Assembly: GCA_015064785.1 (NCBI GenBank)
Contig: SVRM01000001.1
Location: 349 to 64,348 of the forward strand
Length of the DNA: 64,000 nucleotides
DNA from: Oscillospiraceae bacterium
GTDB lineage: Bacteria; Bacillota; Clostridia; Oscillospirales; CAG-272
Direction: 5' to 3'
Part shown: positions 960 to 43,132 of the stretch, piece after piece
Layout: each line of letters starts with the position of its first letter
Numbering within the stretch: position 1 is the stretch's first letter
Position numbers and translations under genes: made by a program
The notes under the pieces: generated by a model
What the model saw: the letters and a program-made list of their open reading frames with translations, nothing else
Databases searched by the model: none
Told to the model about the DNA's origin: nothing

Positions 960-3275
960 TTATGTGTTAGAATGATTCAGTGCTTGAACCGGATAAACAT
1001 TGCCGTCCTCCGCAGCCCAGGTTTCGCCAATCATATCAATACCGGATTCAGGTCCGTATATGATCATTCCCGGACAGTTTACGATAGAATTGGCTCTCCA
1101 TATCATCGGAAAACCGCCGAAAAAATACAATCCTTCCAGATTTTGCAAACTGGTCAGTGCTGTATCCTCAAAAATGAGATTGCCATTCCGCAGAATCAGC
1201 ATATTCAGATACTTATTATTGGAAAATGCCATACCGACAACGGTATGCGTTGCTTCAGGAAGTGTATAGGATGCTTCCTGCCGTGCACGCGGATAGGTGT
1301 GTATTGTCTCCAAACCGCGTTTATACAGAACACCATCAAGATCACAGTAGACAGGATTTTCATCGTCTACATAAATGGCTGTCAGCAAGGAAAGTCCGCT
1401 GAATGCACCATTTGCAATACTTTGAACGCTTTCAGGAATTGTAATTTCCGTGATTTTATCTGTAATAAATGCTTTTGTACTAATCCGTTTTGTCTGTTTC
1501 CCAATCACAACGGAGCTCAGATTATCACAGTTTCGGATCACCATGGTAGGAACGGTTGTCAGTGTATCCGGCAAGATCAGGGTTGTCAGCTCGTGACATT
1601 CCTCAATGGCACGCGATTGAATTGATACCTGCTTCAAACCGGATAGATCCAGTGTTTTAAGACCGACTCCAAATAAGGCATATGAGCAAATCAATTCTAA
1701 ACTGTCCGGCAGCTGCAATTTGTGCAGAGAAGGAAGATTGGCAAACGAAAGCGATCTGATCGTCCGCAATTTATTTCCTGTAAACAGAACTTCCTCCATG
1801 GATACACATCCGTTAAATACCTCACTTCTTATATCTTCCGCATCCTCGGGCAGAACCACGCGCCTCAGCGCGGTACAGTTGCGGAGTATAACATCTTCAA
1901 GATATTTTACATGCGGCGGGAAAACAAATTCTGTCAACTTGATACATTCCATGAATGCACCAGCTTCAATCTGTGTACAGCTGTCCGGAAGAACCACAGT
2001 TTCCAGATTCGGCATATAAGAAAATGCAGAATATCCAATTCCCGTGATTCCCTCTTCCACAATCAAAGCCGTAACAAGCTCTTTATAGGGTGCAAGCTCC
2101 TCCAGGCGGAAAATTGACTGTTCCTCTTTTCGTTCTCGCAGAAGATCATAATTCCAGACATCTGTGACACCGACACGTCCAGTGCCGGATACCGTGAATG
2201 TTCCGTCTTCGGTGAGCTGATAGGTAGCATCCTCACCGCACATGCCGCTTGCAATGACAGCTGCCGTCTGTATAGGTTCCTCCTGCGGTACAATTCTCTC
2301 CGGAATTGCAGGGACATCCTCTTTGGGGATATCGGACAGAGGATGGCTGCTTGACAGTTCATCTGCTGACGGCTGATCCGATGTGTTTTGCTGCTGACCG
2401 TACAGAAAACCGACACCCAACAGGCATATGCACAGAATCAGGGCGGCAGTCAGAGCCGGAAGAATTGCTGTCGTACGGAGACCAATGATCCAGTGCCTCC
2501 GGAAAAATGAATGGATTCTTTCTTTGAAATGTGGTTTTTCCTTTTCTTTCAGATCATCCCCGTCTGCATTGAAAATGTGAATGTCATTTGCAGCCATTCC
2601 TGCTGCTGCGAATACGGCAGAAAGAATCCGGATTGCGTCAGCCTGCGGCAACGTGGTCTGTAATACCGGAAGCATCATCACTGATGTCAGTGCAAGTACC
2701 GCAGGGGACAGGTGCATTTGTCCAGTTCGTTTCTCCTCTGCTTCGATCAGCTTTTCCAAGGTGTTCCGCGCATAAAACAACCGACTTTTTACAGTATTGA
2801 TTGGACAGTCCTGAATGACTGCAATTTCACCGACGGATCGATCCTGGAAATAGAAAAGATATACTGCCTCTTTTTGCTCGTTAGGCAGTGCGTCAATCAT
2901 TTCGCGTATGGTATCCTGCAACCACGACTTCTGAAACCATTCATCAAACGTCGTTTTTTGCAGCTTTGCTTCCTCTGATATTACATAAATCAGCTTGCCG
3001 TCCTGTGTGTGCTGCTGTAGATGATCCTGACAGATATTGAAGGTGATGGAATGAATCCAGCGAAGGAAACTGCGTTCCTCCCGGAGTGATCCGAGGTGCA
3101 GCCAGACCTTGAGATAAACCTCTTGTACAACGTCCTGGGCTTCCGTTTCATTTTTCAATAAGGCACACGCGGCTGAATATACATAATCTTTTGTCAGTTG
3201 GAATACGGTTGTGAATGCATCGCTGTCGCCCTGTTTGGCTTTCACAACATATTCCGTTAAAATTTCAATGTCCAT
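960..3275 (-). CDS. ECF-type sigma-70 family domain fused to transmembrane segment(s) and a BspA-like leucine-rich-repeat ectodomain
   Basis: 771-aa ORF. N-terminus has sigma region 2 (DVVQEVYLKVWLHL..FLRWIHSITFN) and region 4 (EQKEAVYLFYFQDRSVGEIAVIQDCPINTVKSRLFYARNTL). A hydrophobic span follows (TTAILPALTAALILCICLLGVGFLY), then a Pro/Glu-rich linker. The rest is repeated L..v.lP.s...I...aF..C..L units. Confidence 0.85.
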   Translation of the reverse strand: MDIEILTEYVVKAKQGDSDAFTTVFQLTKDYVYSAACALLKNETEAQDVVQEVYLKVWLHLGSLREERSFLRWIHSITFNICQDHLQQHTQDGKLIYVISEEAKLQKTTFDEWFQKSWLQDTIREMIDALPNEQKEAVYLFYFQDRSVGEIAVIQDCPINTVKSRLFYARNTLEKLIEAEEKRTGQMHLSPAVLALTSVMMLPVLQTTLPQADAIRILSAVFAAAGMAANDIHIFNADGDDLKEKEKPHFKERIHSFFRRHWIIGLRTTAILPALTAALILCICLLGVGFLYGQQQNTSDQPSADELSSSHPLSDIPKEDVPAIPERIVPQEEPIQTAAVIASGMCGEDATYQLTEDGTFTVSGTGRVGVTDVWNYDLLRERKEEQSIFRLEELAPYKELVTALIVEEGITGIGYSAFSYMPNLETVVLPDSCTQIEAGAFMECIKLTEFVFPPHVKYLEDVILRNCTALRRVVLPEDAEDIRSEVFNGCVSMEEVLFTGNKLRTIRSLSFANLPSLHKLQLPDSLELICSYALFGVGLKTLDLSGLKQVSIQSRAIEECHELTTLILPDTLTTVPTMVIRNCDNLSSVVIGKQTKRISTKAFITDKITEITIPESVQSIANGAFSGLSLLTAIYVDDENPVYCDLDGVLYKRGLETIHTYPRARQEASYTLPEATHTVVGMAFSNNKYLNMLILRNGNLIFEDTALTSLQNLEGLYFFGGFPMIWRANSIVNCPGMIIYGPESGIDMIGETWAAEDGNVYPVQALNHSNT

Positions 3276-8368: not shown

Positions 8369-8701
8369 TTATTCCCCGCCCTTGTGCGGACGGATTTCAT
8401 AATGAATCAGAAAACTCATCAGCGCCCGGAGCAGAATCACGGCACCGAGCATATACAGCTCCTCCAGACTTTGCACCAGTACCGTCCGGAGAATTTCCGA
8501 TGCCAGTTTGAATTCCAGTCCAAGCGCCAGCCCCCGGGCAAGGTTGCTTTGCAGATCGAAGGTCTTTTTCATGAAAGTAATCTGGAAATATTTCCAGAAT
8601 CCGTGGATGCCTGACCAGAAAACAGTAAAAATTCCGATAATTTCCAGAATGGCAATCATCACAGGCAGAACCGACGCAATCACATCATGCAGCAGAGTCA
8701 T
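8369..8701 (-). CDS. DUF1622-type small membrane protein
   Basis: 110 aa with hydrophobic segments and the LARGLALGLEFKLASEILRTV block typical of DUF1622. AGGAGA RBS upstream. Confidence 0.7.
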   Translation of the reverse strand: MTLLHDVIASVLPVMIAILEIIGIFTVFWSGIHGFWKYFQITFMKKTFDLQSNLARGLALGLEFKLASEILRTVLVQSLEELYMLGAVILLRALMSFLIHYEIRPHKGGE

Positions 8702-8808: not shown

Positions 8809-8837
8809 TTGACAAAATCATGATTCAATGGTACAAT
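8809..8837 (+). promoter_or_regulatory. Candidate sigma-A promoter of the rnf operon
   Basis: TTGACA (8809..8814), 17 bp, TACAAT (8832..8837) with TGg extended -10. Lies about 60 nt upstream of rnfC. Confidence 0.5.
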
Positions 8838-8899
8838 AAATTGATATAATTATGGAAAGCATAATACAGACACTGAAAAAACAGAAAGGTTGAAATCAA

Positions 8900-10216
8900 A
8901 TGTCTTTTTTCTTACACGGCGTTCATGTTCCACACAGAAAAAACACCGCCGATCAGTCTGCGAAGCGTATTTCCCCGGTGAAAACCGTGACCATTCCGAT
9001 GTCCATGCACATCGGCGCACCGGCAAAGCCAACCGTCCGCGTCGGTGATACAGTACAGGTCGGCACGAAGATTGCAGATGCTGTCGGTGCGGTGTCCTCG
9101 CCGATTCATGCAAGTGTGTCCGGTAAGGTCACAAAAATTTCCGATATTCTGCTGTCCTCCGGCAACACCGTTCCGGCTGTTATCATTGAGTCAGACGGAG
9201 AAATGACACCGGATGCAGATATGCAGGCACCGGTCATTGCAAGCCGAGAGGATCTTCTTGTGGCAATGAAGGACAGCGGTGTGGTCGGTCTTGGCGGTGC
9301 AGGCTTCCCGACCTATGTGAAGTGGAGCGCCGATCCCGCACGCATGGAGGATCTGATCATCAACGGCGCGGAATGTGAGCCGTATATCACCTCCGACTCG
9401 CTGACCATGACGGAGCGTGCGGATGATATGGAGTATGCGCTGCGCGTCATCATGAAGCACTTCCCGCTCAAGCGTGTCATCATCGGCATCGAAAGCAATA
9501 AGCCTGCCGCGATTGCTTCGATGAAGGACATGGCTGCCAGAATCGGTGGCGTGGAGGTTTGTGTGCTTCCGCAGCTGTACCCACAGGGCGGTGAGAAGGT
9601 ATTGGTCTATCACACCACAAAAAAGGTCATTCCCGCCGGCAAGCTGCCCATTGACGTTGGCTGTGTCGTCTGCAACTGTACCACGATTGCTGCCATCGGT
9701 TCTTATCTGCAAACCGGTATGCCGCTGGTCGAAAAGTGCATTACCGTGGACGGCGGTGCGGTTGCGGAACCGCAGAACCTGGTTGTCCCGATCGGCACAT
9801 CGCTTGAGGATGTTTTTGCATTCTGCGGCGGACTGAAAAGCACACCGAGTAAGGTTCTCTACGGCGGTCCGATGATGGGTGTCACTGTCCCAGATCTCAG
9901 CGCACCGGTACTCAAAAACACCAACGCAGTCATTGCGCTGACCGAAAAGGAATCCAGACTGCCCAAAACCTCTGCCTGCATCCGCTGCGGTGCCTGCACC
10001 AATGTCTGTCCGCTGGGACTGGCTCCGGCGCAGATTCTGCTTGCGTACAAGAAAAAGGATGCGGACATGCTGAAGGCGCTGTCGGTGGAATCCTGTATGC
10101 TGTGCGGCTGCTGTAGTTTCAACTGCCCTGCCAACCGTCCGCTCGTACAGACGAATTCCCTGTCCAAACAGCTGCTGAAAGAAACCAAGGCAAAGGAGAC
10201 AACCAAACATGGATAA
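8900..10216 (+). CDS. rnfC: Rnf electron-transport complex subunit C
   Basis: 438 aa. Contains GLGGAGFPT and two 4Fe-4S motifs (CIRCGACTNVCP, CMLCGCCSFNCP). First gene of the canonical CDGEAB order. Confidence 0.95.
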   Translation: MSFFLHGVHVPHRKNTADQSAKRISPVKTVTIPMSMHIGAPAKPTVRVGDTVQVGTKIADAVGAVSSPIHASVSGKVTKISDILLSSGNTVPAVIIESDGEMTPDADMQAPVIASREDLLVAMKDSGVVGLGGAGFPTYVKWSADPARMEDLIINGAECEPYITSDSLTMTERADDMEYALRVIMKHFPLKRVIIGIESNKPAAIASMKDMAARIGGVEVCVLPQLYPQGGEKVLVYHTTKKVIPAGKLPIDVGCVVCNCTTIAAIGSYLQTGMPLVEKCITVDGGAVAEPQNLVVPIGTSLEDVFAFCGGLKSTPSKVLYGGPMMGVTVPDLSAPVLKNTNAVIALTEKESRLPKTSACIRCGACTNVCPLGLAPAQILLAYKKKDADMLKALSVESCMLCGCCSFNCPANRPLVQTNSLSKQLLKETKAKETTKHG

Positions 10217-11138
10217 TATGCTTCATATTTCCGCTTCCCCGCATATTCACAGCGGCAGATCGACCATGTCGATTATGCGCGACGTTCTGATTTCACTTAC
10301 ACCTGCGGCTATCGCCGGAACGGTGATCTTTGGTCTGCGCTCGCTTCTGGTCATTGCGGTCTGTGTCGCATCCTGCGTACTGCTGGAAGCACTGTATAAT
10401 TTCATTACCAAAAAGGATCAGACCGTGGGAGATCTCAGTGCCGCGGTCACGGGTCTTTTGCTCGCGCTGAATCTGCCGTCCACTGTCCCGGTCTGGCAGT
10501 GCGTTGTCGGCTGTGTTTTTGCCATCATCGTGGTCAAGTGCCTGTTCGGCGGTATCGGCTGCAACCTTGTCAATCCTGCCATTACGGCACGTGTGTTTAT
10601 GCTCGTTTCCTTCGGCAGCATGGCTTCCCACGGGATGCCGACCATCGTTGACACCGTCTCCGGCGCAACACCGCTGGAGCAGATGGCAAACGGCGGCACG
10701 GTGCCGCTCACCGATCTCATCCTCGGTATCCGCGGCGGTGCCATCGGCGAGACCTGCGCGATTGCACTTCTGCTCGGCTTTGCATATCTCTTGATCCGCC
10801 GCATCATTTCCTGGCACATTCCGGTCATGTATATCGGCAGTGTGTTTGTCCTCTCCCTGCTCGCGGAAGGCTTTGATGCGGCACGTGCGCTGGCTCTGAC
10901 ACTGTCCGGTGCGGTTCTGATCGGTGCGATCTTTATGGCAACCGACTATGTCACCTCTCCCGCAACCGCGTGGGGCAAGGTCATCTTCGGTCTGGGCGCA
11001 GGTTTACTTACGTTCCTGATCCGATACTACGGTATCTATCCCGAAGGTGTATCCTTTGCCGTTCTGTTTATGAACATTCTGACTCCCTATATTGAGAAGC
11101 TGACCGCACACAAGGTATTCGGAGGAAAAGCAGTATGA
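10209..11138 (+). CDS. rnfD: Rnf complex subunit D (membrane, flavinylated)
   Basis: 309-aa polytopic protein. Carries the flavinylation motif TVSGATPLEQ. Overlaps the rnfC stop. Confidence 0.95.
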   Translation: MDNMLHISASPHIHSGRSTMSIMRDVLISLTPAAIAGTVIFGLRSLLVIAVCVASCVLLEALYNFITKKDQTVGDLSAAVTGLLLALNLPSTVPVWQCVVGCVFAIIVVKCLFGGIGCNLVNPAITARVFMLVSFGSMASHGMPTIVDTVSGATPLEQMANGGTVPLTDLILGIRGGAIGETCAIALLLGFAYLLIRRIISWHIPVMYIGSVFVLSLLAEGFDAARALALTLSGAVLIGAIFMATDYVTSPATAWGKVIFGLGAGLLTFLIRYYGIYPEGVSFAVLFMNILTPYIEKLTAHKVFGGKAV

Positions 11139-12328
11139 AAAAATCCGTAAAAAGCATTGCGGTGCTGGTCAGCATCTGCGCCGTGGTATCCGTGATTCTG
11201 GCGCTGACCAATGCAATCACCGCGCCGATCATCACACAAAACGAAGAAATGGCTGCCAATGCAGCACTTCTGGAGGTTCTGCCCGACGGCGGCAGCTTTG
11301 AGCGAGCAGACACCACCGCATACACACTTCCCGCCACTGTTTCCGATGTGTATCTGGCATCGAGCGGCGGACATGTCGTCCGTCTGACGACCACGGGCTA
11401 CGCATCGGGTATGGTTCTGATGTGCGGCATCAACCCCGACGGCACGGTTGCCGGTACCAAGCTCATCGCGTCCTCTGAAACCCCGTCCATCGGCGGCGCG
11501 GCGGCGGAAAGCTTTGCATCACTCCTGCCCGGCAGAAGCCTTGCTGACATTGATGGTGTTGACACGGTTTCCGGCGCGACCAAGACGACTGCGGCTTACC
11601 GTTCTGCTGTCCGCGATGCACTGAACACCGTTGTCATTCTCGGCGGCGGTTCTGTGGATCTGCGTACCGACGAGGAAATCCTTGCAGATGCTCTGAACGA
11701 GGCACTGGGAGCTGCTAACGGTGCATTTACCAAGCACTTCTTCACAGAAGTTACAGAGGGTGTTGATGCGATCTACTTTGCCGACAACGGCGCGGGCGCT
11801 GTCTGCGTCATCGGTGAACAGTTCATCGCACTGGATGCATCCTACACCGTGATCACTGCGTGTGACAATACGGTCGCCGACACAGCCAAAACAGCGGTCG
11901 ACACCGTCCGTGCATCTGCTGTGACCGCGCTTGATCTTGCGGCATATGAAGGTCTGCCGACGCATCTTGTCAAGGCAGAGAAGACCGCCACCGGCAATTA
12001 TGTCATGGAAATCAAAGCAGCAGGCTACGGCATTACCGGCGGCAATGAGTATCATCCCGCATCCGGTGAATATATCCACATCCTCGTATCTCTCACGGCA
12101 GATGGCAGAATCATCGACTGTATGACCTTGTCCCAGGCAGAAACGGACGGCATCGGCTCTGCATGTGCCGACGAGGCGTTCTACGGTCAGTTCGATGGCA
12201 AGACCGAGGAAACTTACAACAGCATCGATGCCATCAGCGGTGCTACGCTGACAACCGACGGCTATAAGAAGGCGATTCTTCGCGCTTTTGAATGTGTCAG
12301 AATTTTTGAAGGAGGCGATCCGTCATGA
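11135..12328 (+). CDS. rnfG: Rnf complex subunit G, unusually long, with two FMN-binding domains
   Basis: 397 aa with an N-terminal anchor helix. Two SGAT flavinylation motifs: DTVSGATKTT (nt 11570..11581) and DAISGATLTT (nt 12236..12247). ATGA overlap with rnfD. Confidence 0.9.
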   Translation: MKKSVKSIAVLVSICAVVSVILALTNAITAPIITQNEEMAANAALLEVLPDGGSFERADTTAYTLPATVSDVYLASSGGHVVRLTTTGYASGMVLMCGINPDGTVAGTKLIASSETPSIGGAAAESFASLLPGRSLADIDGVDTVSGATKTTAAYRSAVRDALNTVVILGGGSVDLRTDEEILADALNEALGAANGAFTKHFFTEVTEGVDAIYFADNGAGAVCVIGEQFIALDASYTVITACDNTVADTAKTAVDTVRASAVTALDLAAYEGLPTHLVKAEKTATGNYVMEIKAAGYGITGGNEYHPASGEYIHILVSLTADGRIIDCMTLSQAETDGIGSACADEAFYGQFDGKTEETYNSIDAISGATLTTDGYKKAILRAFECVRIFEGGDPS

Positions 12329-13014
12329 AGAAGAACAGCTGTCTTTCCATTGTTCTGAACGGTATCATCAAAGAAAATCCCACGCTGGTGCTGATTCTCG
12401 GTACCTGTCCGACGCTGGCGACCACAACCAATGTCTTCGGTGCATTCGGCATGGGCATTGCAACGCTGATGGTTCTCATCTGCTCTAATGTCCTGATTTC
12501 CCTGCTCCGCCGCGTGATTCCGGACAATGTCCGTATTCCGTGTTATATCGTTATCATCGCCGGCTTTGTTACCGTCGTACAGATGATCATTCACGCATAT
12601 CTTCCGGATCTTTATGACATGCTCGGCGTGTACCTTGCGCTGATCGTCGTCAACTGCATCATCCTCGGCCGCGCGGAAATGTTTGCAAGCAAGAACTCTG
12701 TCGGTCGCTCCGCACTGGACGGTCTTGGCATGGGCATCGGCTTTACCTGTGCGCTCTGCGTCATCGCAACCATCCGTGAGGTTCTGGGCGCTGCCAGCTT
12801 TGCCGGCATGTCCATCCCCTTCCTCGCCGACTTTAAGATTGAATTTTTCGTCAAGGCGCCCGGCGGCATGGTCGTTTACGGTCTGCTGATTGCGCTGGTC
12901 AGTGCGCTCACTGCCGGAAAAGCCCCCAAAAAGAAGGAATTTTCGTGCGCCGGCTGTCCCAGTGCCGGTATGTGCGGCAATGCCTGTACACCCCAAAGAA
13001 AGGAGAATGTTTGA
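12325..13014 (+). CDS. rnfE: Rnf complex subunit E
   Basis: 229-aa polytopic protein. The CPTLATTT and NCIILGRAE blocks are typical of RnfE/NqrD. Confidence 0.93.
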   Translation: MKKNSCLSIVLNGIIKENPTLVLILGTCPTLATTTNVFGAFGMGIATLMVLICSNVLISLLRRVIPDNVRIPCYIVIIAGFVTVVQMIIHAYLPDLYDMLGVYLALIVVNCIILGRAEMFASKNSVGRSALDGLGMGIGFTCALCVIATIREVLGAASFAGMSIPFLADFKIEFFVKAPGGMVVYGLLIALVSALTAGKAPKKKEFSCAGCPSAGMCGNACTPQRKENV

Positions 13015-13041
13015 ACATCAACGTTCAAACGGTGATATCAC

Positions 13042-13641
13042 ATGGAAGGCTTCAAGAATCTCATTGTCATTCTCCTCTCATCCGTTTTAGTCAATAACTA
13101 TGTCCTCAGCCGCTTCCTCGGCATCTGTCCGTTCCTCGGCGTCTCGAAGAAGCTCAATCAGGCAGTCGGTATGGGCGTTTCCGTCACGGCTGTCATGCTG
13201 CTTGCCACCTTTGCAACCTGGCCGATCCAGTACTTCGTGCTGGAGCCGCTGGGACTTGCGTATCTTCAGACCATTGTTTTCATTCTGATCATTGCATCGC
13301 TTGTCCAGATTCTCGAAATCATCTTAAAGCGCTTCTCTCCCGCGCTGCACCAGGGTCTTGGCGTCTATTTACCGCTGATCACGACCAACTGTGCCGTGCT
13401 CGGCGTTGCCATCAACAACATCACCGATCAGTACACCTTCATCGAATCCGTGTTCAGCTCCCTCGGCTGCGGACTCGGCTTTCTGCTGGCAATGGTGCTG
13501 TTCTCCGGTCTGCGCTCCCGCATTGACGAAATGGAGGTTCCGGACAACTTCCGCGGTGTTGCGATCACACTGATTGCCGCATCCTTCATTTCTCTTGCAT
13601 TCATGGGACTTGCCGGAATTGTGGACAATCTCTTTGCTTAA
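13042..13641 (+). CDS. rnfA: Rnf complex subunit A
   Basis: 199-aa polytopic protein. The GICPFLGVS and TTNCAVLGVA blocks are typical of RnfA/NqrE. Confidence 0.93.
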   Translation: MEGFKNLIVILLSSVLVNNYVLSRFLGICPFLGVSKKLNQAVGMGVSVTAVMLLATFATWPIQYFVLEPLGLAYLQTIVFILIIASLVQILEIILKRFSPALHQGLGVYLPLITTNCAVLGVAINNITDQYTFIESVFSSLGCGLGFLLAMVLFSGLRSRIDEMEVPDNFRGVAITLIAASFISLAFMGLAGIVDNLFA

Positions 13642-13653
13642 AGGAGGACAACT

Positions 13654-14481
13654 ATGATCATTGATGTATTAACTGCGCTCGGTGTTGTCGTGGCCATCGG
13701 TCTGCTGTTCGGTATCCTGCTCGCGCTGTTCATTTCCCTGTTCGGCATTGAAGAGGACGAGCGTGTCGTGCAGATCCGCGAAACCCTTCCCGGCATCAAC
13801 TGCGGTGCCTGCGGCTTCAAGGGCTGTGCGGACTATGCAGCGGCAATGGCAAAGGGTGATACCCCGCCGAATCTCTGTATTCCCGGTGCGGAAGATGTTG
13901 CAAAAAAGCTCGGTGAAATTCTCGGCGTTGAGGTCGAGGAGCCGAAGGACATGGTCGCCTTTGTACATTGCAACGGCACCTGCGATGCCGCACCCGAAAA
14001 AGCAAATTATGACGGTATTGCCACCTGCAAGGCGCGTGCGGCCGTATACGGCGGACCCAAGGCGTGTAACTGGGGTTGTCTCGGCTGCGGCGACTGTGCC
14101 GCGGTTTGTGTCGCCGATGCCATCTGTCTTGCGGACGGCATTGCACGCATCAATACCGAACGCTGTGTCGGCTGCGGACTGTGCGTGAAGGAATGCCCGA
14201 AAAAGATCATTTCGATGGTTCCGCAGGAAACTGCGGCAGCCGTCTTTTGCAGCAGCCATGATCGCGGTGCCGATGCCCGTAAGGTGTGCCAAAATGCCTG
14301 CATCGCATGTAAAAAATGCGAGAAGACCTGTCCGCACGGCGCGATTACCGTTGTCAATAACTGCGCGGTCATTGACTACAGCAAGTGTACCGGATGCGGT
14401 GCGTGTACCGAGGTCTGTCCGACGGGATGCCTCAAGCGCGTCAGCTTCCCTGACCTGCCGGAAGACTTCAGCTGGAACTGA
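13654..14481 (+). CDS. rnfB: Rnf complex subunit B (polyferredoxin)
   Basis: 275 aa. N-terminal TM helix, CGACGFKGC block and several CxxCxxCxxxCP ferredoxin motifs. Confidence 0.93.
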   Translation: MIIDVLTALGVVVAIGLLFGILLALFISLFGIEEDERVVQIRETLPGINCGACGFKGCADYAAAMAKGDTPPNLCIPGAEDVAKKLGEILGVEVEEPKDMVAFVHCNGTCDAAPEKANYDGIATCKARAAVYGGPKACNWGCLGCGDCAAVCVADAICLADGIARINTERCVGCGLCVKECPKKIISMVPQETAAAVFCSSHDRGADARKVCQNACIACKKCEKTCPHGAITVVNNCAVIDYSKCTGCGACTEVCPTGCLKRVSFPDLPEDFSWN

Positions 14482-14485
14482 CCGG

Positions 14486-14875
14486 ATGCAGTATTGCAGC
14501 AATCATTCCGGACGGAAATACAGGCATGATCTTCTGTTCATCGGCGGATTGCTTCTGATTATTGCCGCCGCGTCACTTGCACTGTTTTTATTCCGCGTAC
14601 CCGGCGATACTGTCACCGTCACAGTCGACGGACAGGTGTGGGGCGAATTTTCGCTCAGCGAAAACCGCACAGTGGAGATTACCGGTGCTGACGGTTACAA
14701 TCTGCTGGTCATCGCGAATGGGCAGGCGTATGTGTCAGAAGCAAGCTGTCCTGACGGCATCTGCTCATCCCACCGTCCGATCAGCCATGACGGGGAGTCC
14801 ATTATCTGTCTGCCGAACCGGGTTGTCATCTCGGTACAAAGGCAGGATGACCGACAGCCGGACATTATCTCATAA
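14486..14875 (+). CDS. NusG domain II-containing membrane-anchored protein (DUF1312 family)
   Basis: In-frame ATG at 14486, just after the rnfB stop, within listed ORF 14258..14875. TM helix LLFIGGLLLIIAAASLALFLF, then VTVDGQVWGEFSL...ASCPDGICSSHRPISHDGESIICLPNRVVISV, which resembles the NusG_II signature. Confidence 0.8.
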   Translation: MQYCSNHSGRKYRHDLLFIGGLLLIIAAASLALFLFRVPGDTVTVTVDGQVWGEFSLSENRTVEITGADGYNLLVIANGQAYVSEASCPDGICSSHRPISHDGESIICLPNRVVISVQRQDDRQPDIIS

Positions 14876-14893
14876 GGAGTGCATTGCGGAGTC

Positions 14894-15409
14894 ATGAAAC
14901 AGAACGCAGCCAAAAAAATTGCATTTCTCGGACTTGCCGCTTCCCTGTCGCTTCTGCTGTCCTATGTGGAGCTGCTGCTGCCGCCCGTTTATGCCGCAGT
15001 TCCGGGAATTAAGCTCGGTTTGCCGAATATCGTCATTCTCTATCTGCTTTATTCGCTCGGGCTGCGATATGCCGCGCCGGTGTCGCTGATCCGGCTCTGC
15101 ATCTCCTCCCTGCTGTTCGGAAATGCCATGACATTTGCCTACAGTCTTGCAGGTGCACTTCTCAGTATGCTTGTGATGTGTATTCTGAAAAAGACCGGTT
15201 TTCTGTCGGAGATCGGTGTGAGTGTCGCAGGTGGTGTGTCCCACAACCTTGGGCAGATTCTGGTGGCGGTACTTCTTCTCGACACGCCGCAGATCGCCTA
15301 TTATATGATCGTACTGGCAATCACAGGAACCGTTTCCGGAATTTTCATCGGACTTTGCGGCGCATATCTGATCCGTCGGATTCCACCGCGAAAATTGTTT
15401 ATATTTTAA
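14894..15409 (+). CDS. Gx transporter family protein (PF07456, formerly 'heptaprenyl diphosphate synthase component I')
   Basis: Polytopic protein. The PGIKLGLPNIVILYLLY and GVSVAGGVSHNLGQILVAVLLLDT blocks are typical of the family. Start at ATG 14894, or GTG 14879. Confidence 0.8.
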   Translation: MKQNAAKKIAFLGLAASLSLLLSYVELLLPPVYAAVPGIKLGLPNIVILYLLYSLGLRYAAPVSLIRLCISSLLFGNAMTFAYSLAGALLSMLVMCILKKTGFLSEIGVSVAGGVSHNLGQILVAVLLLDTPQIAYYMIVLAITGTVSGIFIGLCGAYLIRRIPPRKLFIF

Positions 15410-15429
15410 CAAAAAATTCAGCATAATTA

Positions 15430-15459
15430 TTGACATGGGATATGCATTTATGGTATAAT
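15430..15459 (+). promoter_or_regulatory. Candidate sigma-A promoter for the lipoprotein-apbE unit
   Basis: TTGACA (15430..15435), 18 bp, TATAAT (15454..15459) with TGg extended -10. Confidence 0.5.
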
Positions 15460-15476
15460 ACTATAAGCATATCCCA
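15436..15476. promoter_or_regulatory. Perfect 10-bp inverted repeat bracketing the -10 box (candidate repressor operator)
   Basis: TGGGATATGC (15436..15445) and GCATATCCCA (15467..15476) are exact reverse complements, 21 bp apart. The TATAAT box lies between them. Confidence 0.5.
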
Positions 15477-15500
15477 AAATTATATATAAGGAGCAACACA

Positions 15501-16469
15501 ATGAAGAAACTCATTTCAATTCTGTTGGTATCTCTGATGGTACTGACCGCATTTGCTGTTACCGGATGCAGCGGCGCAGGTGCAGACCTCAAGCTCGGGC
15601 TCGGTGTATACACAACCGTATCGGCGGCTGATGCTACTGAGGATAAAGACGGTCAGGGTCAGGCAACGATTACCGCAGCAGCGGTTCTGGTTGATGCTGA
15701 CGGCAAGATCGTCCGTGCATTCATCGACTGTGCCGACAACAAGGTTGGCTATACGGCAGATGGCAAGGCTGTTGCCGCGCAGAGCTTCACCACCAAGTAC
15801 GAAGCAGGCAAGGAATACAACATGGTCGCGTATGGCGGCGCTGTCAAGGAGTGGTATGAACAGGCAGATGCGTTCTGCGCACTGATCGTCGGCAAGACTG
15901 CGGCAGAGGTCAAGGCGCTTGTCACCGATGCCGGCACCGGTACCGATGATGTCATCAATGCAGGCTGTACCATCGCGATTTCCGAATTCGCATATGCTGT
16001 CGATCGCGCCATTACCAATGCGACTGTCACTGGTGCATCCTCTGCTGACACGCTGAAGCTCGGTATCTCTACCGCGCAGACCACCACCGATGCGACCGAG
16101 GACAAAGCAGGCACCAACAAGGTCGAAACCACCTTCTTTGCGGCTGCTGTCGGTGCTGACGGCAAGGTAACTGCTGCTTCCAGTGACTGCGTTGAGGTAT
16201 CCTTCGGTTTTGATACTGCTGGCAAGTCCACCTTTGATGCATCCAAGGCGATTGCCTCCAAGAAGGAACAGGGCGATACCTACGGCATGAAGGCTTACGG
16301 CGGCGCTGCAAAGGAATGGTATGAACAGGCAGCGGCATTTGATACTGCATGTGTCGGCAAGACTGCAGCCGAGATTTCCGGTTTTGCAGACGGCAATGCG
16401 GATCTTCAGGCAGCCGGCTGTACCATTGCTGTCACTGGTTTTGCCAAGGCAGCAGCCAAGATCGGCTGA
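15501..16469 (+). CDS. Lipoprotein with two tandem homologous domains (FMN_bind-like, non-canonical AGCT motif)
   Basis: 322 aa. Signal peptide plus lipobox (LTAFAVTGC). Internal duplication: aa 30-170 against aa 185-320, sharing LKLG, DATEDK, YGGA.KEWYEQA.AF, VGKTAAE and AGCTIA. AAGGAG RBS upstream. Confidence 0.85.
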   Translation: MKKLISILLVSLMVLTAFAVTGCSGAGADLKLGLGVYTTVSAADATEDKDGQGQATITAAAVLVDADGKIVRAFIDCADNKVGYTADGKAVAAQSFTTKYEAGKEYNMVAYGGAVKEWYEQADAFCALIVGKTAAEVKALVTDAGTGTDDVINAGCTIAISEFAYAVDRAITNATVTGASSADTLKLGISTAQTTTDATEDKAGTNKVETTFFAAAVGADGKVTAASSDCVEVSFGFDTAGKSTFDASKAIASKKEQGDTYGMKAYGGAAKEWYEQAAAFDTACVGKTAAEISGFADGNADLQAAGCTIAVTGFAKAAAKIG

Positions 16470-16482
16470 TAACAAAAAACAA

Positions 16483-16518
16483 GTGGGCTGCGGCACAATC
16501 GTGCAACAGCCCATTTTT
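16483..16518 (+). terminator. Intrinsic terminator/attenuator between the lipoprotein gene and apbE
   Basis: GTGGGCTG...CAGCCCAT stem followed by TTTTT. The apbE RBS (GGAGG) starts 6 nt later. Confidence 0.55.
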
Positions 16519-16532
16519 ACTCCGGAGGCACC

Positions 16533-17591
16533 ATGAAACACACCAAAACCAGCGTTCTTTTGCTGTTGACTGCATTTTTTCTGTCGGTACTCTTTTCATC
16601 CTGTGCATTACGCGAAACAAAATTTACCGCGTATTCGCTGGATTACTTTGACACGGCAACCACAATCACAGGATACGCCGAGGACAGAGCTGCCTTTGAC
16701 AGCATCAGCAATGACATCCTTTCTGTTCTCGGCGAATATCACCGGTTGTATACAATCTATCACCACTATGACGATATGGAAAATCTCTGTACCGTCAATA
16801 CGCTGGAAAACGGCGTTCACCGCACAGTTCCGGTGGACCGACGCATCACGGACATGCTGCTGTACGCAAAGGATATGTATGCGCTGACGGACGGAAGGAT
16901 GAACATTGCAATGGGCAGTGTTCTATCGATCTGGCACGATTATCGCACCGCAGGTCTGGACGAGCCGTCCGCCGCTGCATTGCCGTCGATGGAGGAGCTG
17001 TCACGAGCTGCACTGCATACAAATATCGACGATCTGGTCATCGACGAAGAAGCGGGCACTGTCTTTCTGGCAGACCCGGACATGACGCTGGATGTCGGTG
17101 CGATTGCCAAAGGCTATGCCGTTGAGATGGCAGCACAGATGCTGGAGGAACGCGGTATTTCCGGATATGTCATCAATGTCGGCGGCAATGTGCGCACCGT
17201 CGGAAGCAAGCCGGACGGCTCTCCCTGGCTTGCCGGTATTGAAAATCCGAACCCGACGGACGATGCGCCGTATGTCGGTTATCTGCATCTTACAGGGGAA
17301 TCCATTGTCACAAGCGGAACGTATCAGCGGTACTATATGGTGGATGGCAAAAGCTATCACCACATCATTGATGCGGACACACTCTTCCCGGCTGAAGGAT
17401 ATCTGTCGATCTCGATTGTGTGCAAGAATTCGGCACTGGGAGACGCATTGTCCACGGCGCTGTTCTGCATGACGCCGGAGGACGGTCTGGCACTGGTGGA
17501 ACGTCTTGCAGACGTGGAAGCACTCTGGATTCTGGCAGATGAGTCAAGACAGTATTCCTCCGGTTTTGCAGCGTATCTGACAGAGCCGTGA
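16533..17591 (+). CDS. apbE: FAD:protein FMN transferase (ApbE/Ftp family), lipoprotein
   Basis: 352 aa. Signal peptide plus lipobox (LSVLFSSC). ApbE blocks LDVGAIAKGYAVE, NVGGNV and TSGTYQRY..DGKSYHHIID. Confidence 0.9.
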   Translation: MKHTKTSVLLLLTAFFLSVLFSSCALRETKFTAYSLDYFDTATTITGYAEDRAAFDSISNDILSVLGEYHRLYTIYHHYDDMENLCTVNTLENGVHRTVPVDRRITDMLLYAKDMYALTDGRMNIAMGSVLSIWHDYRTAGLDEPSAAALPSMEELSRAALHTNIDDLVIDEEAGTVFLADPDMTLDVGAIAKGYAVEMAAQMLEERGISGYVINVGGNVRTVGSKPDGSPWLAGIENPNPTDDAPYVGYLHLTGESIVTSGTYQRYYMVDGKSYHHIIDADTLFPAEGYLSISIVCKNSALGDALSTALFCMTPEDGLALVERLADVEALWILADESRQYSSGFAAYLTEP

Positions 17592-30061: not shown

Positions 30062-31342
30062 TTATAAGAGATACTGCTGGATTTTTTCTGCCGGGATATC
30101 GCGCAGACGGACGTTTTCCTTTGCCGCAATAGCCGCCGCGACACCGCCAGCCTCACCGATGCCGACACAGATCGGCATGACACGGTAATTAGAATGCGCC
30201 ATGTGCGTACCGCTGATGTTGCGTCCGGACAGAAGCAGTCCTTCCACGCCGAGGGGAACGAGACAGCCCCACGGAATGGTGTAGCCCTTGCTCTGGCTCC
30301 ATTTGTGCTGAACACCGGTTTTGTCAAGACCGGCTCCCGTCAGATTGTGTACGTCAAAGTTGAAATGCGCACCGCGCACGACCCAGTCATCAAACACACG
30401 TGCCGTGAGAATATCTTCCTCGTTGAGCACATATTCTCCGCTGAAGTGTCTGGTCTCACGCACACCCATCATTGAGCCTGCACTGATGACATAGCAATGC
30501 TCAAAGCCGGGAACAAATTCGCGCAGATAGGCAACGATTGCGGGAATCTGCGAACGGCAGACGATCTCCGCGCGGGTCAGGTCTTCCGCCTTTGTGCCGT
30601 CGATTTCGGTACAGTTGGTCATATTGCAGGTGATGATGCCGGGAAGCGTTGTGGGATAAACCAGAAGATGACCTGCGGGATACGGAATGTGCGCTTTTGC
30701 CAGTGCCTGCAATTCTCCTTTTTCGGTCTGATGCGTCGATTCAAACGAACCGAGCAGAACCGCCCTGTCCGTGTCCACGCCTGCGACCTTGAACATCAGC
30801 GTAGCCGGCTGCATCTTGCCGTCGGATTCCCTGCCCTTGTAGTATGGAACGCCGGCAAATGCCGCGGCATCACCGTCACCCGTGCCGTCGACGACAACCC
30901 TGGAGGTGAACACGCGCCGACCGGACTTGCTCTCAGTGATAACACCGGTGACGCGGTTTCCGTCCATCACAACACCGGCGACAAACGTATACAAAAGCAG
31001 CGTCACACCCGCTTCGGCAAGCATGTCAAAATAGACTGCTTTGAGCAGCTCCGGATCAATCTGACGGACAATTTTTCCATGTCCGGCACCCTCGACCTTT
31101 TCCGCCTGTCTTGTCAGAATTTCGGTATAGAGCTTTGACTGCACCGTTCCGGTCCAGTGGCTCATCAGACCGGAGGTCGAAATACCGCCGGGGCAGTTGT
31201 TGTATTCGAGCAGAAGGGTCTTTGCGCCCATTCTCGCCGCCATGACCGCCGCCGAAACACCGGCAGGTCCGGCACCGGCGACAATGACATCGTATTCGCC
31301 TGCAACGGGCAGGTCTCTTGCCTGTTCATGATATACCGTCAT
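30062..31342 (-). CDS. FAD-dependent oxidoreductase (FAD_oxidored/GIDA-like family)
   Basis: 426 aa. N-terminal dinucleotide fold YDVIVAGAGPAGVSAAVMAARMGAKTLLLE. Confidence 0.8.
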   Translation of the reverse strand: MTVYHEQARDLPVAGEYDVIVAGAGPAGVSAAVMAARMGAKTLLLEYNNCPGGISTSGLMSHWTGTVQSKLYTEILTRQAEKVEGAGHGKIVRQIDPELLKAVYFDMLAEAGVTLLLYTFVAGVVMDGNRVTGVITESKSGRRVFTSRVVVDGTGDGDAAAFAGVPYYKGRESDGKMQPATLMFKVAGVDTDRAVLLGSFESTHQTEKGELQALAKAHIPYPAGHLLVYPTTLPGIITCNMTNCTEIDGTKAEDLTRAEIVCRSQIPAIVAYLREFVPGFEHCYVISAGSMMGVRETRHFSGEYVLNEEDILTARVFDDWVVRGAHFNFDVHNLTGAGLDKTGVQHKWSQSKGYTIPWGCLVPLGVEGLLLSGRNISGTHMAHSNYRVMPICVGIGEAGGVAAAIAAKENVRLRDIPAEKIQQYLL

Positions 31343-41459: not shown

Positions 41460-41472
41460 TACCTTTCCTTTT

Positions 41473-42924: not shown

Positions 42925-43132
42925 ATTGTTTCCTTTCTCAAAGATAATTTCTATATCCATTATATCATGCATCCAACGGTCTTGCAAGAATATTTCATGA
43001 ATTTATCCGAAAATTTGAATCCTATCCTGCCAATGCGCGGAATGCTGTTGACTTTTCTATGAATTTATGTTAATATAATACCATTATATAAAGGAGAGCA
43101 TCCGATTCCATCCGAACCGGATCACTATCACA

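What the first reader, a model, noticed from the sequence alone, without database searches (positions are those of the whole stretch)
8809..17591. rnfCDGEAB extended by a NusG-II/Gx-transporter pair, a tandem-domain lipoprotein and a lipoprotein ApbE: a complete extracytoplasmic flavinylation module
SEEN: ten same-strand genes lie behind one strong promoter (8809..8837), with a second promoter at 15430. The order is rnfC-D-G-E-A-B (overlaps or gaps of no more than about 30 nt), then a NusG-II membrane protein starting 5 nt after rnfB. A Gx transporter, a lipoprotein (15501..16469) and ApbE (16533..17591) follow. ApbE has a lipobox (LSVLFSSC), so it works on the outer face. SGAT motifs are present in RnfD (TVSGATPLEQ) and twice in RnfG. 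ESTABLISHED: ApbE/Ftp transfers FMN from FAD to the Thr of [S/T]GA[T/S] motifs in RnfG/RnfD/NqrB/NqrC. In Listeria an ApbE-like FmnB flavinylates the two-domain lipoprotein PplA for extracellular electron transfer. INFERENCE: the lipoprotein here is positionally analogous to PplA. The Gx transporter belongs to a family related to small vitamin-transporter membrane components. Together with the NusG-II protein it is a candidate for supplying flavin to the outer face, a step whose carrier is poorly defined. I cannot verify from memory whether these two families correspond to named components of the Listeria system.
Basis: partly seen in the sequence, partly recalled or inferred. Interest (0 to 1): 0.65.

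Follow-up and report, generated by a model that had tools for sequence, protein, structure and literature searches.

The report
Rnf operon with flavin-attachment genes
This is an ordinary Rnf energy-conserving operon of a gut Clostridia bacterium, followed by the already published eetA/eetB flavin-export genes, the flavin-attaching enzyme ApbE, and an unannotated two-domain lipoprotein that is probably a new, atypical target of that enzyme.

Summary
All ten genes sit on the + strand at the stated coordinates (rnfCDGEAB, a NusG_II protein, a PF07456 protein, a lipoprotein, a lipoprotein ApbE), and both promoters are there.

Rivera-Lugo et al. 2023 (PMC9973259) showed that PF07456 is Listeria EetB, the substrate-binding subunit of an ECF-type FAD exporter that feeds ApbE. 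PF07009 is EetA. They found eetB next to apbE in 2,169 genomes and next to rnf in 572 Clostridia genomes.

What I add:
- **Two transcription units.** In related genomes only rnfC (55/57) and the lipoprotein gene (55/77) have near-consensus promoters. A terminator-like hairpin separates the lipoprotein gene from apbE.
- **The lipoprotein.** It has no Pfam or NCBIfam match, yet it is a distant FMN_bind relative. Its conserved A-G-C-T aligns on the canonical S-G-A-T flavinylation site.
- **Its context.** apbE follows it directly in 72 of 78 related loci. In one Bacillota genome it fills the PplA position of a Listeria-type electron-export locus.

Flavinylation of the lipoprotein is inferred, not shown. 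Novelty is low overall and moderate for the lipoprotein.

The parts
8809..8837 (+). Promoter P1 (TTGACA-17-TACAAT with a TG extension) for rnfCDGEAB-eetA-eetB
   Evidence: 11 of 12 consensus positions. A match of at least 11/12 lies upstream of rnfC in 55/57 related loci, against 7/400 random windows.
8900..10216 (+). rnfC (438 aa)
   Evidence: Complex1_51K 1e-43, RnfC_N 2e-28, SLBB, Fer4.
10209..11138 (+). rnfD (309 aa). SGAT flavinylation motif at residues 151-154 (nt 10659-10670).
   Evidence: PF03116, 4e-109. Motif position.
11135..12328 (+). rnfG, long form (397 aa). N-terminal membrane anchor and two FMN_bind domains, with SGAT at residues 146-149 and 368-371.
   Evidence: Both GAT sites and the length of about 390 aa are conserved in the clade. 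The N-terminal half matches solved RnfG structures 9ERI_G and 7ZC6_G.
12325..13014 (+). rnfE (229 aa)
   Evidence: PF02508, 3e-59.
13042..13641 (+). rnfA (199 aa)
   Evidence: PF02508, 2e-57.
13654..14481 (+). rnfB (275 aa)
   Evidence: FeS (PF04060) plus several Fer4 domains.
14486..14875 (+). eetA homologue (129 aa). One N-terminal membrane helix, followed by a NusG_II domain predicted to face outward.
   Evidence: PF07009, 5e-28; one hydrophobic segment at residues 16-34 after a positively charged N-terminus. PF07009 is labelled EetA; solved relatives 4ESN and Lin0431.
14879..15409 (+). eetB homologue (PF07456, the 'Gx transporter' family), an ECF-S-type membrane protein. The likely start is the ATG at 14894.
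   Evidence: PF07456, 6e-36; multiple hydrophobic segments. PF07456 is EetB, the FAD-binding ECF-S subunit required for PplA flavinylation.
15430..15459 (+). Promoter P2 (TTGACA-18-TATAAT with a TG extension) for the lipoprotein gene
   Evidence: 12 of 12. A match of at least 11/12 is conserved in 55/77 related loci, about 35-60 nt from the start codon.
15501..16469 (+). Two-domain lipoprotein (322 aa, lipobox Cys23). It is a divergent FMN_bind-superfamily protein. The predicted flavinylation threonines are T157 and T308, inside A-G-C-T (nt 15960-15971 and 16413-16424).
   Evidence: AlphaFold2 pLDDT is 91.7 for the whole protein and 94.5 for domain 1. Synteny.
16481..16521 (+). Intrinsic-terminator-like hairpin plus U run between the lipoprotein gene and apbE. 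It is probably a partial terminator.
   Evidence: -25.4 kcal/mol, z -3.1. A GC hairpin followed by a T run, with unrelated sequences, lies in the same gap in 56/72 related loci.
16533..17591 (+). apbE, encoding a lipoprotein FAD:protein FMN transferase (352 aa, lipobox Cys24)
   Evidence: PF02424, 6e-69. NF007774; 13 solved FMN transferases at E values down to 3e-36.
8369..8701 (-). DUF1622 small membrane protein. It is a conserved neighbour of the cluster. Whether it belongs to the system is uncertain.
   Evidence: PF07784, 8e-19. A homologue is present in 31/80 related loci, either upstream of rnfC or directly after apbE.

Best explanation
The region encodes a ferredoxin:NAD+ oxidoreductase (Rnf) together with the machinery that attaches its extracytoplasmic flavins.

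**Genes and transcription.** Promoter P1 drives rnfCDGEAB-eetA-eetB. EetB is an ECF-type substrate-binding membrane subunit. Working with a shared ECF-T/ECF-A module encoded elsewhere, it exports FAD to the outer face of the membrane. EetA is its conserved, membrane-anchored partner of unknown role. Promoter P2 drives a probably abundant lipoprotein. Read-through of a hairpin terminator after that gene supplies a lower level of the lipoprotein ApbE.

**Flavin attachment.** ApbE uses the exported FAD to attach FMN to the threonine of the SGAT motif in RnfD (T154). It does the same at both FMN_bind domains of the long RnfG (T149 and T371). It most probably also modifies T157 and T308 of the two-domain lipoprotein, whose A-G-C-T aligns on the canonical S-G-A-T.

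**Role of the lipoprotein.** The flavinylated lipoprotein would act as a PplA-like two-flavin electron carrier on the cell surface. It could plausibly take electrons from the extra RnfG flavin domain.

**What is shown and what is inferred.**
- Shown here: gene identities, motifs, synteny, promoters, terminator, distant homology.
- Shown elsewhere for homologues: EetB function, and ApbE activity on RnfG, RnfD and PplA.
- Inferred: flavinylation of this lipoprotein, its electron-carrier role, and its coupling to RnfG.
For: **Gene identities.**

**EetA/EetB.** The family assignment, the FAD-export role, and the published linkage to apbE and Rnf come.

**The lipoprotein is a distant FMN_bind relative.**
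- A family profile hits PDB entry 2KZX at E 6e-8, with AGCT aligned on SGAT.
- That same stretch of 2KZX passes the Pfam FMN_bind gathering cut-off (25.7 bits against 22).
- hhalign against the RnfG FMN_bind domains gives the same register three times, at P 0.005-0.03.

**The site is conserved.** A-G-C-T-I is nearly invariant in both domains: A 77-78, G 74, C 75-76, T 78-79 of 81 sequences, and I 78 (domain 1) or 66 (domain 2) of 81. Where the site changes, it becomes ASVT, SSVT, SGCT or ASCS, so the hydroxyl residue is kept.

**Fusions.** Relatives P0230 and P0248 fuse a canonical Pfam FMN_bind domain to two such domains.

**Synteny.** apbE lies directly downstream in 72/78 loci, including distant genera that have no rnf nearby. 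L075 places the family in the PplA slot of a Listeria-type electron-export locus.

**Motif tolerance.** In a fumarate reductase target, G-to-A and A-to-V substitutions in the motif still allow about 50% flavinylation, and D-to-A has little effect.

**Transcription.** Conserved P1 and P2 and the conserved terminator.

**Expression.** Near-identical metatranscriptome fragments cover rnfA/rnfB, the lipoprotein gene and apbE.
Against: - The lipoprotein has no Pfam FMN_bind hit even at E up to 10.
- Foldseek found no significant PDB match for either high-confidence model, not even to 2KZX or the solved RnfG/NqrC structures.
- The 2KZX homology covers only the C-terminal helical half of the domain.
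- The motif differs at two of the four canonical positions, and no experiment on any family member was found.
- ApbE next to rnf is already explained by RnfD and RnfG alone.
- No ECF-T or ECF-A gene is in the window.
- Deleting eetA had no phenotype in Listeria.
- The related loci are mostly Oscillospirales metagenome-assembled genomes, so the synteny counts are not independent.
Confidence: 0.7

Rival explanations
1. The lipoprotein is a degenerate FMN_bind relative that is no longer flavinylated. It binds FAD or FMN non-covalently, or it serves as a scaffold or hand-off partner between the EetB exporter and ApbE.
For: It has no canonical [S/T]GA[S/T] motif and no Pfam hit. Its coupling to apbE is tighter than its coupling to rnf. 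An invariant K-E-W-[Y/F]-E-Q helix could form a ligand or partner site.
Against: The hydroxyl residue at the aligned flavinylation position is nearly invariant, while its neighbours vary. A strong dedicated promoter with a terminator before apbE suits an abundant carrier better than a stoichiometric helper. Homologues with four or six domains look like multi-cofactor wires, not chaperones.
Confidence: 0.2
2. EetA/EetB here import a flavin or another vitamin for the cell, rather than exporting FAD. The clustering with rnf and apbE would then reflect cofactor demand only.
For: PF07456 belongs to the ECF-S superfamily, most of whose members are importers. No dedicated FmnA-like ECF-T gene is found in the window. 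The direction of transport cannot be read from sequence.
Against: The Listeria orthologue binds FAD and is required for extracytosolic PplA flavinylation, while RibU handles import. ApbE is on the outer face and needs FAD there. The published co-localisation with apbE covers 2,169 genomes.
Confidence: 0.08
3. The lipoprotein has nothing to do with redox or flavins, for example a surface or solute-binding protein. It would sit next to apbE only by shared ancestry among related genomes.
For: There are no database annotations and no structural match. Most of the loci compared come from one order.
Against: The adjacency persists at 40-45% identity in other lineages whose flanking genes are unrelated (L075-L078, L080). 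Sequence links it to FMN_bind. Some relatives are fused to canonical FMN_bind domains.
Confidence: 0.03

Closest known systems
Rnf-associated eetA/eetB/apbE clusters of Clostridia (Rivera-Lugo et al. 2023, mBio, PMC9973259)
   Same: It has the same families (PF07009, PF07456, PF02424) immediately beside rnfCDGEAB. The proposed logic is the same: export FAD by an ECF system so that ApbE can flavinylate RnfG and RnfD.
   Different: Here a Pfam-negative two-domain lipoprotein with its own promoter is inserted between eetB and apbE. RnfG carries a second FMN_bind domain.
Listeria monocytogenes extracellular electron transfer locus (ndh2, dmkA, dmkB, eetA, eetB, fmnA, pplA, fmnB)
   Same: The window has eetA, eetB, a two-domain lipoprotein and an ApbE-type lipoprotein transferase. 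In L075 this lipoprotein family occupies the PplA position of such a locus.
   Different: The window has no ndh2, no quinone-biosynthesis genes and no FmnA-type ECF-T. The membrane electron conduit would be Rnf. The lipoprotein is not a Pfam FMN_bind protein and has AGCT in place of the canonical motif.
FMN-bind2 domain subtype (Huang et al. 2024, mSystems, PMC11334425)
   Same: The domains are about 150 aa with long beta strands and occur in even numbers: two here, and four or six in relatives. The reference protein has no InterPro ID listed and was found by BLAST. The domains are predicted to pack as a two-site unit.
   Different: I could not obtain the reference sequence (NTW96865.1), so identity with that subtype is untested. 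The paper does not mention an AGCT-type site in the text I read.
PDB 2KZX (Clostridium thermocellum A3DHT5, uncharacterised single-domain protein)
   Same: It is the only solved structure with sequence similarity (E 6e-8). It shares the E-W-x-E-Q helix and the site region.
   Different: It has a single domain of 131 aa and a canonical SGAT. Foldseek did not pair it with my models.
Multi-flavinylated RnfG (Meheust et al. 2021, eLife, PMC8238504)
   Same: RnfG has more than one FMN_bind domain, and the authors proposed that this gives Rnf a second, outward electron path.
   Different: No cytochrome domain is present here. The proposed acceptor here is the adjacent lipoprotein, and that is an inference.

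Membership tests
Rnf complex (RnfCDGEAB) | All six subunit families are present and contiguous on one strand. | tested here: met
   Order C-D-G-E-A-B, with overlaps or gaps of at most 27 nt.
Rnf complex (RnfCDGEAB) | [S/T]GA[S/T] flavinylation motifs are present in RnfD and RnfG. | tested here: met
   RnfD residues 151-154; RnfG residues 146-149 and 368-371.
ApbE / Ftp FAD:protein FMN transferase | The PF02424 domain covers the full length, and there is sequence similarity to solved FMN transferases. | tested here: met
   (6e-69, profile positions 2-266 of 266). (7ESA at 3e-36, 1VRM, 4XGW, 4IFU).
ApbE / Ftp FAD:protein FMN transferase | Extracytoplasmic location, shown by a signal peptide with a lipobox. 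| tested here: met
   hydrophobic segment at residues 8-26 and LFSSC with Cys24.
ApbE / Ftp FAD:protein FMN transferase | Mg-dependent FMN transfer from FAD to a target threonine. | not testable with these tools
   This needs an enzyme assay.
[quoted passage not shown] | PF07456 domain in a small multi-helix membrane protein. | tested here: met
   (6e-36)..
[quoted passage not shown] | Gene adjacency to eetA and co-localisation with apbE. | tested here: met
   In related loci eetB lies directly upstream of the lipoprotein-apbE pair in 66/77.
[quoted passage not shown] | ECF-T and ECF-A/A' partners are available. | tested here: inconclusive
   None was found among the ORFs scanned up to 57.5 kb of the window. 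The rest of the genome is not available. Shared ECF modules are usually encoded elsewhere.
[quoted passage not shown] | FAD binding and export. | not testable with these tools
   This was shown only for the Listeria protein.
EetA (PF07009, NusG_II) | PF07009 domain behind a single N-terminal membrane helix, encoded directly upstream of eetB. | tested here: met
PplA / canonical FMN_bind (PF04205) flavinylated lipoprotein | Match to the Pfam FMN_bind model. | tested here: not met
   No hit for the whole protein or for either domain at E up to 10.
PplA / canonical FMN_bind (PF04205) flavinylated lipoprotein | Canonical D-x-x-[S/T]-G-A-[S/T] motif. | tested here: not met
   The sites read D-V-I-N-A-G-C-T and D-L-Q-A-A-G-C-T. 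Only the Gly and the terminal Thr of the four-residue core are kept, and the Asp is displaced by one position.
PplA / canonical FMN_bind (PF04205) flavinylated lipoprotein | Distant homology to FMN_bind, with the site in register. | tested here: met
   Profile against 2KZX at 6e-8. The 2KZX stretch against Pfam FMN_bind scores 25.7 bits, above the 22-bit cut-off. hhalign gives the same register.
PplA / canonical FMN_bind (PF04205) flavinylated lipoprotein | Structural similarity to solved FMN_bind domains. | tested here: inconclusive
   Foldseek against the PDB gave no hit at E up to 0.001 for either model. The secondary-structure order (three strands, then helices, with the site before the last helix) is compatible.
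PplA / canonical FMN_bind (PF04205) flavinylated lipoprotein | A two-domain lipoprotein encoded next to an ApbE-type transferase, inside an electron-export locus. | tested here: met
   L075 supplies the electron-export context.
PplA / canonical FMN_bind (PF04205) flavinylated lipoprotein | Covalent FMN on the site threonines. | not testable with these tools
   This needs in-gel fluorescence or mass spectrometry.
FMN-bind2 subtype (Huang et al. 2024) | A domain of about 160 aa with an extended beta sheet, occurring in even numbers, and with no InterPro ID listed for the reference protein. | tested here: met
   The domains are about 145-150 aa with strands of 13-15 residues. Relatives have two, four or six domains. 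There is no Pfam hit.
FMN-bind2 subtype (Huang et al. 2024) | Sequence similarity to the reference proteins (NTW96865.1, WP_312031774.1). | not testable with these tools
   The reference sequences could not be retrieved. Neither accession nor its source organism appeared in the names and accessions returned.

The most novel reading that the evidence does not exclude
The lipoprotein represents a large family of ApbE substrates that Pfam does not detect. The family has more than 1,600 clusters at 50% identity, mostly in gut Clostridia. Its flavinylation site is [A/S]-[G/S]-[C/V]-[T/S] rather than [S/T]GA[S/T]. Together with the two-flavin RnfG, it would turn Rnf into a quinone-independent outlet that carries ferredoxin or NADH electrons to the cell surface. 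Surveys that rely on PF04205 and the canonical motif would then undercount extracytoplasmic flavoproteins and electron-export capacity in gut anaerobes.
Probability: 0.3. Interest if true: 0.6.

Novelty: new member of a known kind. Interest (0 to 1): 0.33.

Why it matters
The cluster as a whole confirms a published picture, in which Rnf is encoded together with an ECF-type FAD exporter and ApbE.

The part worth following up is the lipoprotein. Its family is abundant, unannotated and tightly coupled to ApbE, and its predicted site departs from the accepted flavinylation motif at two of the four core positions. If it is flavinylated, three things follow:
- The working definition of ApbE targets needs widening.
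- Genome surveys of flavin-based extracytoplasmic electron transfer in gut and rumen Clostridia need revisiting.
- Rnf complexes with a second RnfG flavin domain gain a concrete candidate partner for outward electron flow.

Tried and rejected
- **Pfam and NCBIfam on the lipoprotein and its separate domains.** No hits.
- **Foldseek against the PDB.** I searched with the whole-protein model and the domain-1 model. Both gave only noise, with TM scores of about 0.3 or lower. I therefore make no fold-based claim.
- **hhalign against the RnfG FMN_bind domains.** It gave a consistent register but weak statistics, so I use it only as support.
- **Tying the family to the published FMN-bind2 proteins.** I tried cluster look-up and a diverse single-domain profile search. 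Only 'hypothetical protein' and one 'FMN-binding protein' name came back, with no reference accession.
- **A redox or thioether role for the conserved Cys next to the site Thr.** Rejected as a family-wide function, because relatives replace it with Val.
- **The 10-nt inverted repeat over promoter P2 as a conserved operator.** Rejected, because it is absent from 44 of 55 related promoters.
- **Metatranscriptome contigs.** Most fragments come from relatives at 90-95% identity, so they cannot resolve the operon structure.
- **Search for ECF-T/ECF-A genes or an FMN riboswitch in the window.** None was found.
- **One part of the Rivera-Lugo supplement.** I read it to see how this lipoprotein was annotated there. 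That part held no locus with it.

Full report
**1.

The ORF list and Pfam give ten co-directional genes on the + strand:
- rnfC 8900-10216
- rnfD 10209-11138
- rnfG 11135-12328
- rnfE 12325-13014
- rnfA 13042-13641
- rnfB 13654-14481
- a PF07009 (NusG_II) protein 14486-14875
- a PF07456 protein 14879-15409
- a 322-aa lipoprotein 15501-16469
- ApbE 16533-17591

For the PF07456 gene, an ATG at 14894 that follows an AAGGAG is the more likely start. The SGAT motifs are at RnfD residues 151-154 and RnfG residues 146-149 and 368-371. The lipobox cysteines are Cys23 of the lipoprotein and Cys24 of ApbE. No Rfam family matches anywhere in the window, so there is no flavin riboswitch.

**2. The NusG-II and Gx-transporter pair is already explained**

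Rivera-Lugo et al. 2023 (PMC9973259) showed several things in Listeria monocytogenes:
- EetB, a PF07456 protein, resembles ECF substrate-binding subunits.
- It binds FAD.
- It is required for flavinylation of PplA by the ApbE-like FmnB. It acts with the ECF-T protein FmnA as an FAD exporter.

Their genome survey found eetB in 4,214 genomes. It lies next to eetA in 3,328, next to apbE in 2,169 and next to Rnf genes in 572 Clostridia genomes. Their Data Set S1 labels PF07009 as EetA and PF07456 as EetB.

Two limits remain. Deleting eetA gave no phenotype. And I found no ECF-T or ECF-A gene in the ORFs scanned up to 57.5 kb of the window, so the energising module must be encoded elsewhere.

**3. 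Comparative anatomy**

I fetched 80 loci from species-representative genomes that encode a relative of the lipoprotein. Most are Oscillospirales metagenome-assembled genomes from animal guts, labelled Candidatus Flemingiibacterium, Acutalibacteraceae or Eubacteriales. The DNA runs that hold the window are also gut and faecal metagenomes.

tblastn with the window's proteins gave these counts:
- apbE lies directly downstream of the lipoprotein gene in 72/78 loci that have enough flank.
- eetB lies directly upstream in 66/77.
- rnfC, D, E, A and B lie upstream in 55/61.

The lipoprotein-apbE pair also persists at 40-45% identity where the surroundings differ:
- L076 and L078 have the pair alone.
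- L077 and L080 (Butyrivibrio) have lipoprotein-apbE-eetA-eetB.
- L041 has the permuted order lipoprotein-apbE-DUF1622-rnfCDGEAB-eetAB.

The most informative locus is L075, from a Bacillota genome. Its order is type-II NADH dehydrogenase, polyprenyl synthase, UbiA prenyltransferase, EetA, EetB, this lipoprotein family, ApbE. That is the Listeria-type extracellular electron transfer locus with this family in the PplA position.

**4. Transcription units**

I looked for a match of at least 11/12 to the sigma-70 consensus within 200 nt upstream of each gene in the related loci.

| Position | Loci with a match |
|---|---|
| Upstream of rnfC | 55/57 |
| Upstream of the lipoprotein gene | 55/77 |
| Upstream of each of the other eight genes | 0 or 1 |
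| Random 200-nt windows | 7/400 |

The gap between the lipoprotein gene and apbE folds into a strong hairpin followed by a U run (16481-16521; -25.4 kcal/mol, z -3.1). In 56/72 related loci the same gap holds a GC hairpin plus T run with an unrelated sequence.

The likely arrangement is P1-rnfCDGEAB-eetAB, then P2-lipoprotein-terminator, with apbE expressed by read-through. This suggests an abundant lipoprotein and a scarcer enzyme. Metatranscriptome contigs show near-identical fragments over rnfA/rnfB, the lipoprotein gene and apbE, but they cannot resolve the units.

**5. What the lipoprotein is**

*Size and annotation of the family.* The family is large. There are 3,223 hits among clusters at 90% identity and 1,675 representatives at 50% identity. 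No listed hit in either search carries a precomputed Pfam domain, and the names are 'hypothetical protein'.

*Architecture.* The protein is an internal duplication of a domain of about 150 aa. AlphaFold2 models are confident: pLDDT 91.7 and pTM 0.86 for the whole protein, and pLDDT 94.5 for domain 1. Each domain has three strands of 13-15 residues followed by helices.

*Sequence links to FMN_bind.*
- The single sequence hits PDB 2KZX at E 3e-4 and the family profile at E 6e-8. The alignment covers the invariant K-E-W-Y-E-Q helix and places A-G-C-T on the S-G-A-T of 2KZX.
- That stretch of 2KZX itself passes the Pfam FMN_bind gathering score.
- hhalign against the two RnfG FMN_bind domains of this clade gives the same register at P 0.005-0.03.
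- Two relatives, P0230 (named 'FMN-binding protein', Feifania hominis) and P0248, carry a canonical Pfam FMN_bind domain followed by two of these domains.

*The site.* It is A-G-C-T-I in both domains and is almost invariant across 81 sequences. Over 569 domains the counts are AGCT 371, ASVT 16, SSVT 13, SGCT 8, ASCS 7 and canonical SGAT 1. The hydroxyl residue is what is conserved. The Cys exchanges with Val, which argues against thiol chemistry.

*Would ApbE accept it?* Published mutagenesis of a fumarate reductase target found that G-to-A and A-to-V changes still allow about half-maximal flavinylation. D-to-A matters little, and loss of the Thr abolishes flavinylation. An A-G-C-T site is therefore plausible for ApbE, but it is untested.

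*Evidence against.* Foldseek found no significant PDB neighbour for either model. I treat the structural test as inconclusive.

**6. Relation to published classes**

Huang et al. 2024 (PMC11334425) describe an 'FMN-bind2' subtype. It is about 160 aa and has an extended beta sheet. It occurs in twos or fours and is predicted to pack into a pseudo-symmetric two-flavin unit. It was found by BLAST rather than Pfam, and no InterPro ID is listed for the reference protein.

This family shares those features. Relatives have four domains (P0121, P0155) or six (P0122, P0130). I could not retrieve the reference sequences, so membership is untested.

Meheust et al. 2021 (PMC8238504) had already noted RnfG proteins with several flavin domains and proposed that they offer a second, outward electron path. 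The 397-aa RnfG here, with both sites conserved across the clade, is of that kind.

**7. Mechanism and confidence**

I consider the gene identities and the role of ApbE on RnfD and RnfG near certain. FAD export by EetB is very likely, by orthology. Flavinylation of the lipoprotein at T157 and T308 has a probability of about 0.6-0.7. Electron transfer from the second RnfG domain to the lipoprotein is speculative. The rival explanations are a non-flavinylated flavin-binding or hand-off protein (0.2), flavin import by EetB (0.08), and an unrelated lipoprotein (0.03).

**8. Verdict**

The residual novelty lies in three points:
- an unannotated lipoprotein family coupled to ApbE, with a non-canonical site;
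- its dedicated promoter and terminator;
- its occupancy of the PplA slot in one locus.

I file the cluster as a new member of a known kind.

Noticed in passing
window 8369-8701 (-): A DUF1622 small membrane protein gene lies divergent from rnfC. A homologue is present in 31 of 80 related loci, either upstream of rnfC or co-directional directly after apbE. In L041 it sits between apbE and rnfC. It may be an uncharacterised accessory of the system.
   Followed up: partly
window 16481-16521 (+): An intrinsic-terminator-like hairpin lies between the lipoprotein gene and apbE. The same gap in 56/72 related loci holds a GC hairpin plus T run with an unrelated sequence, which implies that apbE is expressed by read-through.
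   Followed up: yes
window 15435-15475 (+): A perfect 10-nt inverted repeat, TGGGATATGC-N21-GCATATCCCA, overlaps the -10 box of promoter P2 (fold z -3.9). It is not conserved in related loci, and its meaning is unknown.
   Followed up: yes
window 11135-12328 (+): RnfG is twice the usual length (397 aa). It has a second C-terminal FMN_bind domain and an unassigned region of about 120 aa between the two domains. This form is conserved throughout the clade.
   Followed up: partly
L075 4734-12080: A Bacillota metagenome-assembled genome carries a Listeria-type electron-export locus (ndh2, polyprenyl synthase, UbiA, eetA, eetB, apbE). The only candidate for PplA there is a member of this Pfam-negative lipoprotein family, with an A-S-S-V-T site.
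   Followed up: yes
L079 10001-16208: This is the only locus with no apbE in the fetched flank (10 kb downstream of the lipoprotein homologue). It has two ABC transporter-size genes and then a RibU-type riboflavin ECF-S gene (PF07155) about 4.6 kb downstream.
   Followed up: no
window 960-3275 (-): A 771-aa protein has sigma-70 regions 2 and 4 at its N-terminus, fused to BspA-type leucine-rich repeats (LRR_5). This is an unusual architecture.
   Followed up: no
window 31450-32715 (-): A bacterial serpin gene (421 aa; Pfam Serpin, 2e-80) lies next to an FAD-dependent oxidoreductase gene (30062-31342).
   Followed up: no
P0130 (983 aa, Sphaerochaetaceae) and P0122 (991 aa): These are six-domain members of the lipoprotein family. 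One is from Spirochaetota and has A-S-C-S sites, so the family extends beyond Firmicutes and into long multi-site forms.
   Followed up: partly
window 40014-42987 (-): Two adjacent ORFs of about 500 aa (40014-41507 and 41473-42987) have no Pfam match. They lie in a carbohydrate-utilisation neighbourhood.
   Followed up: no
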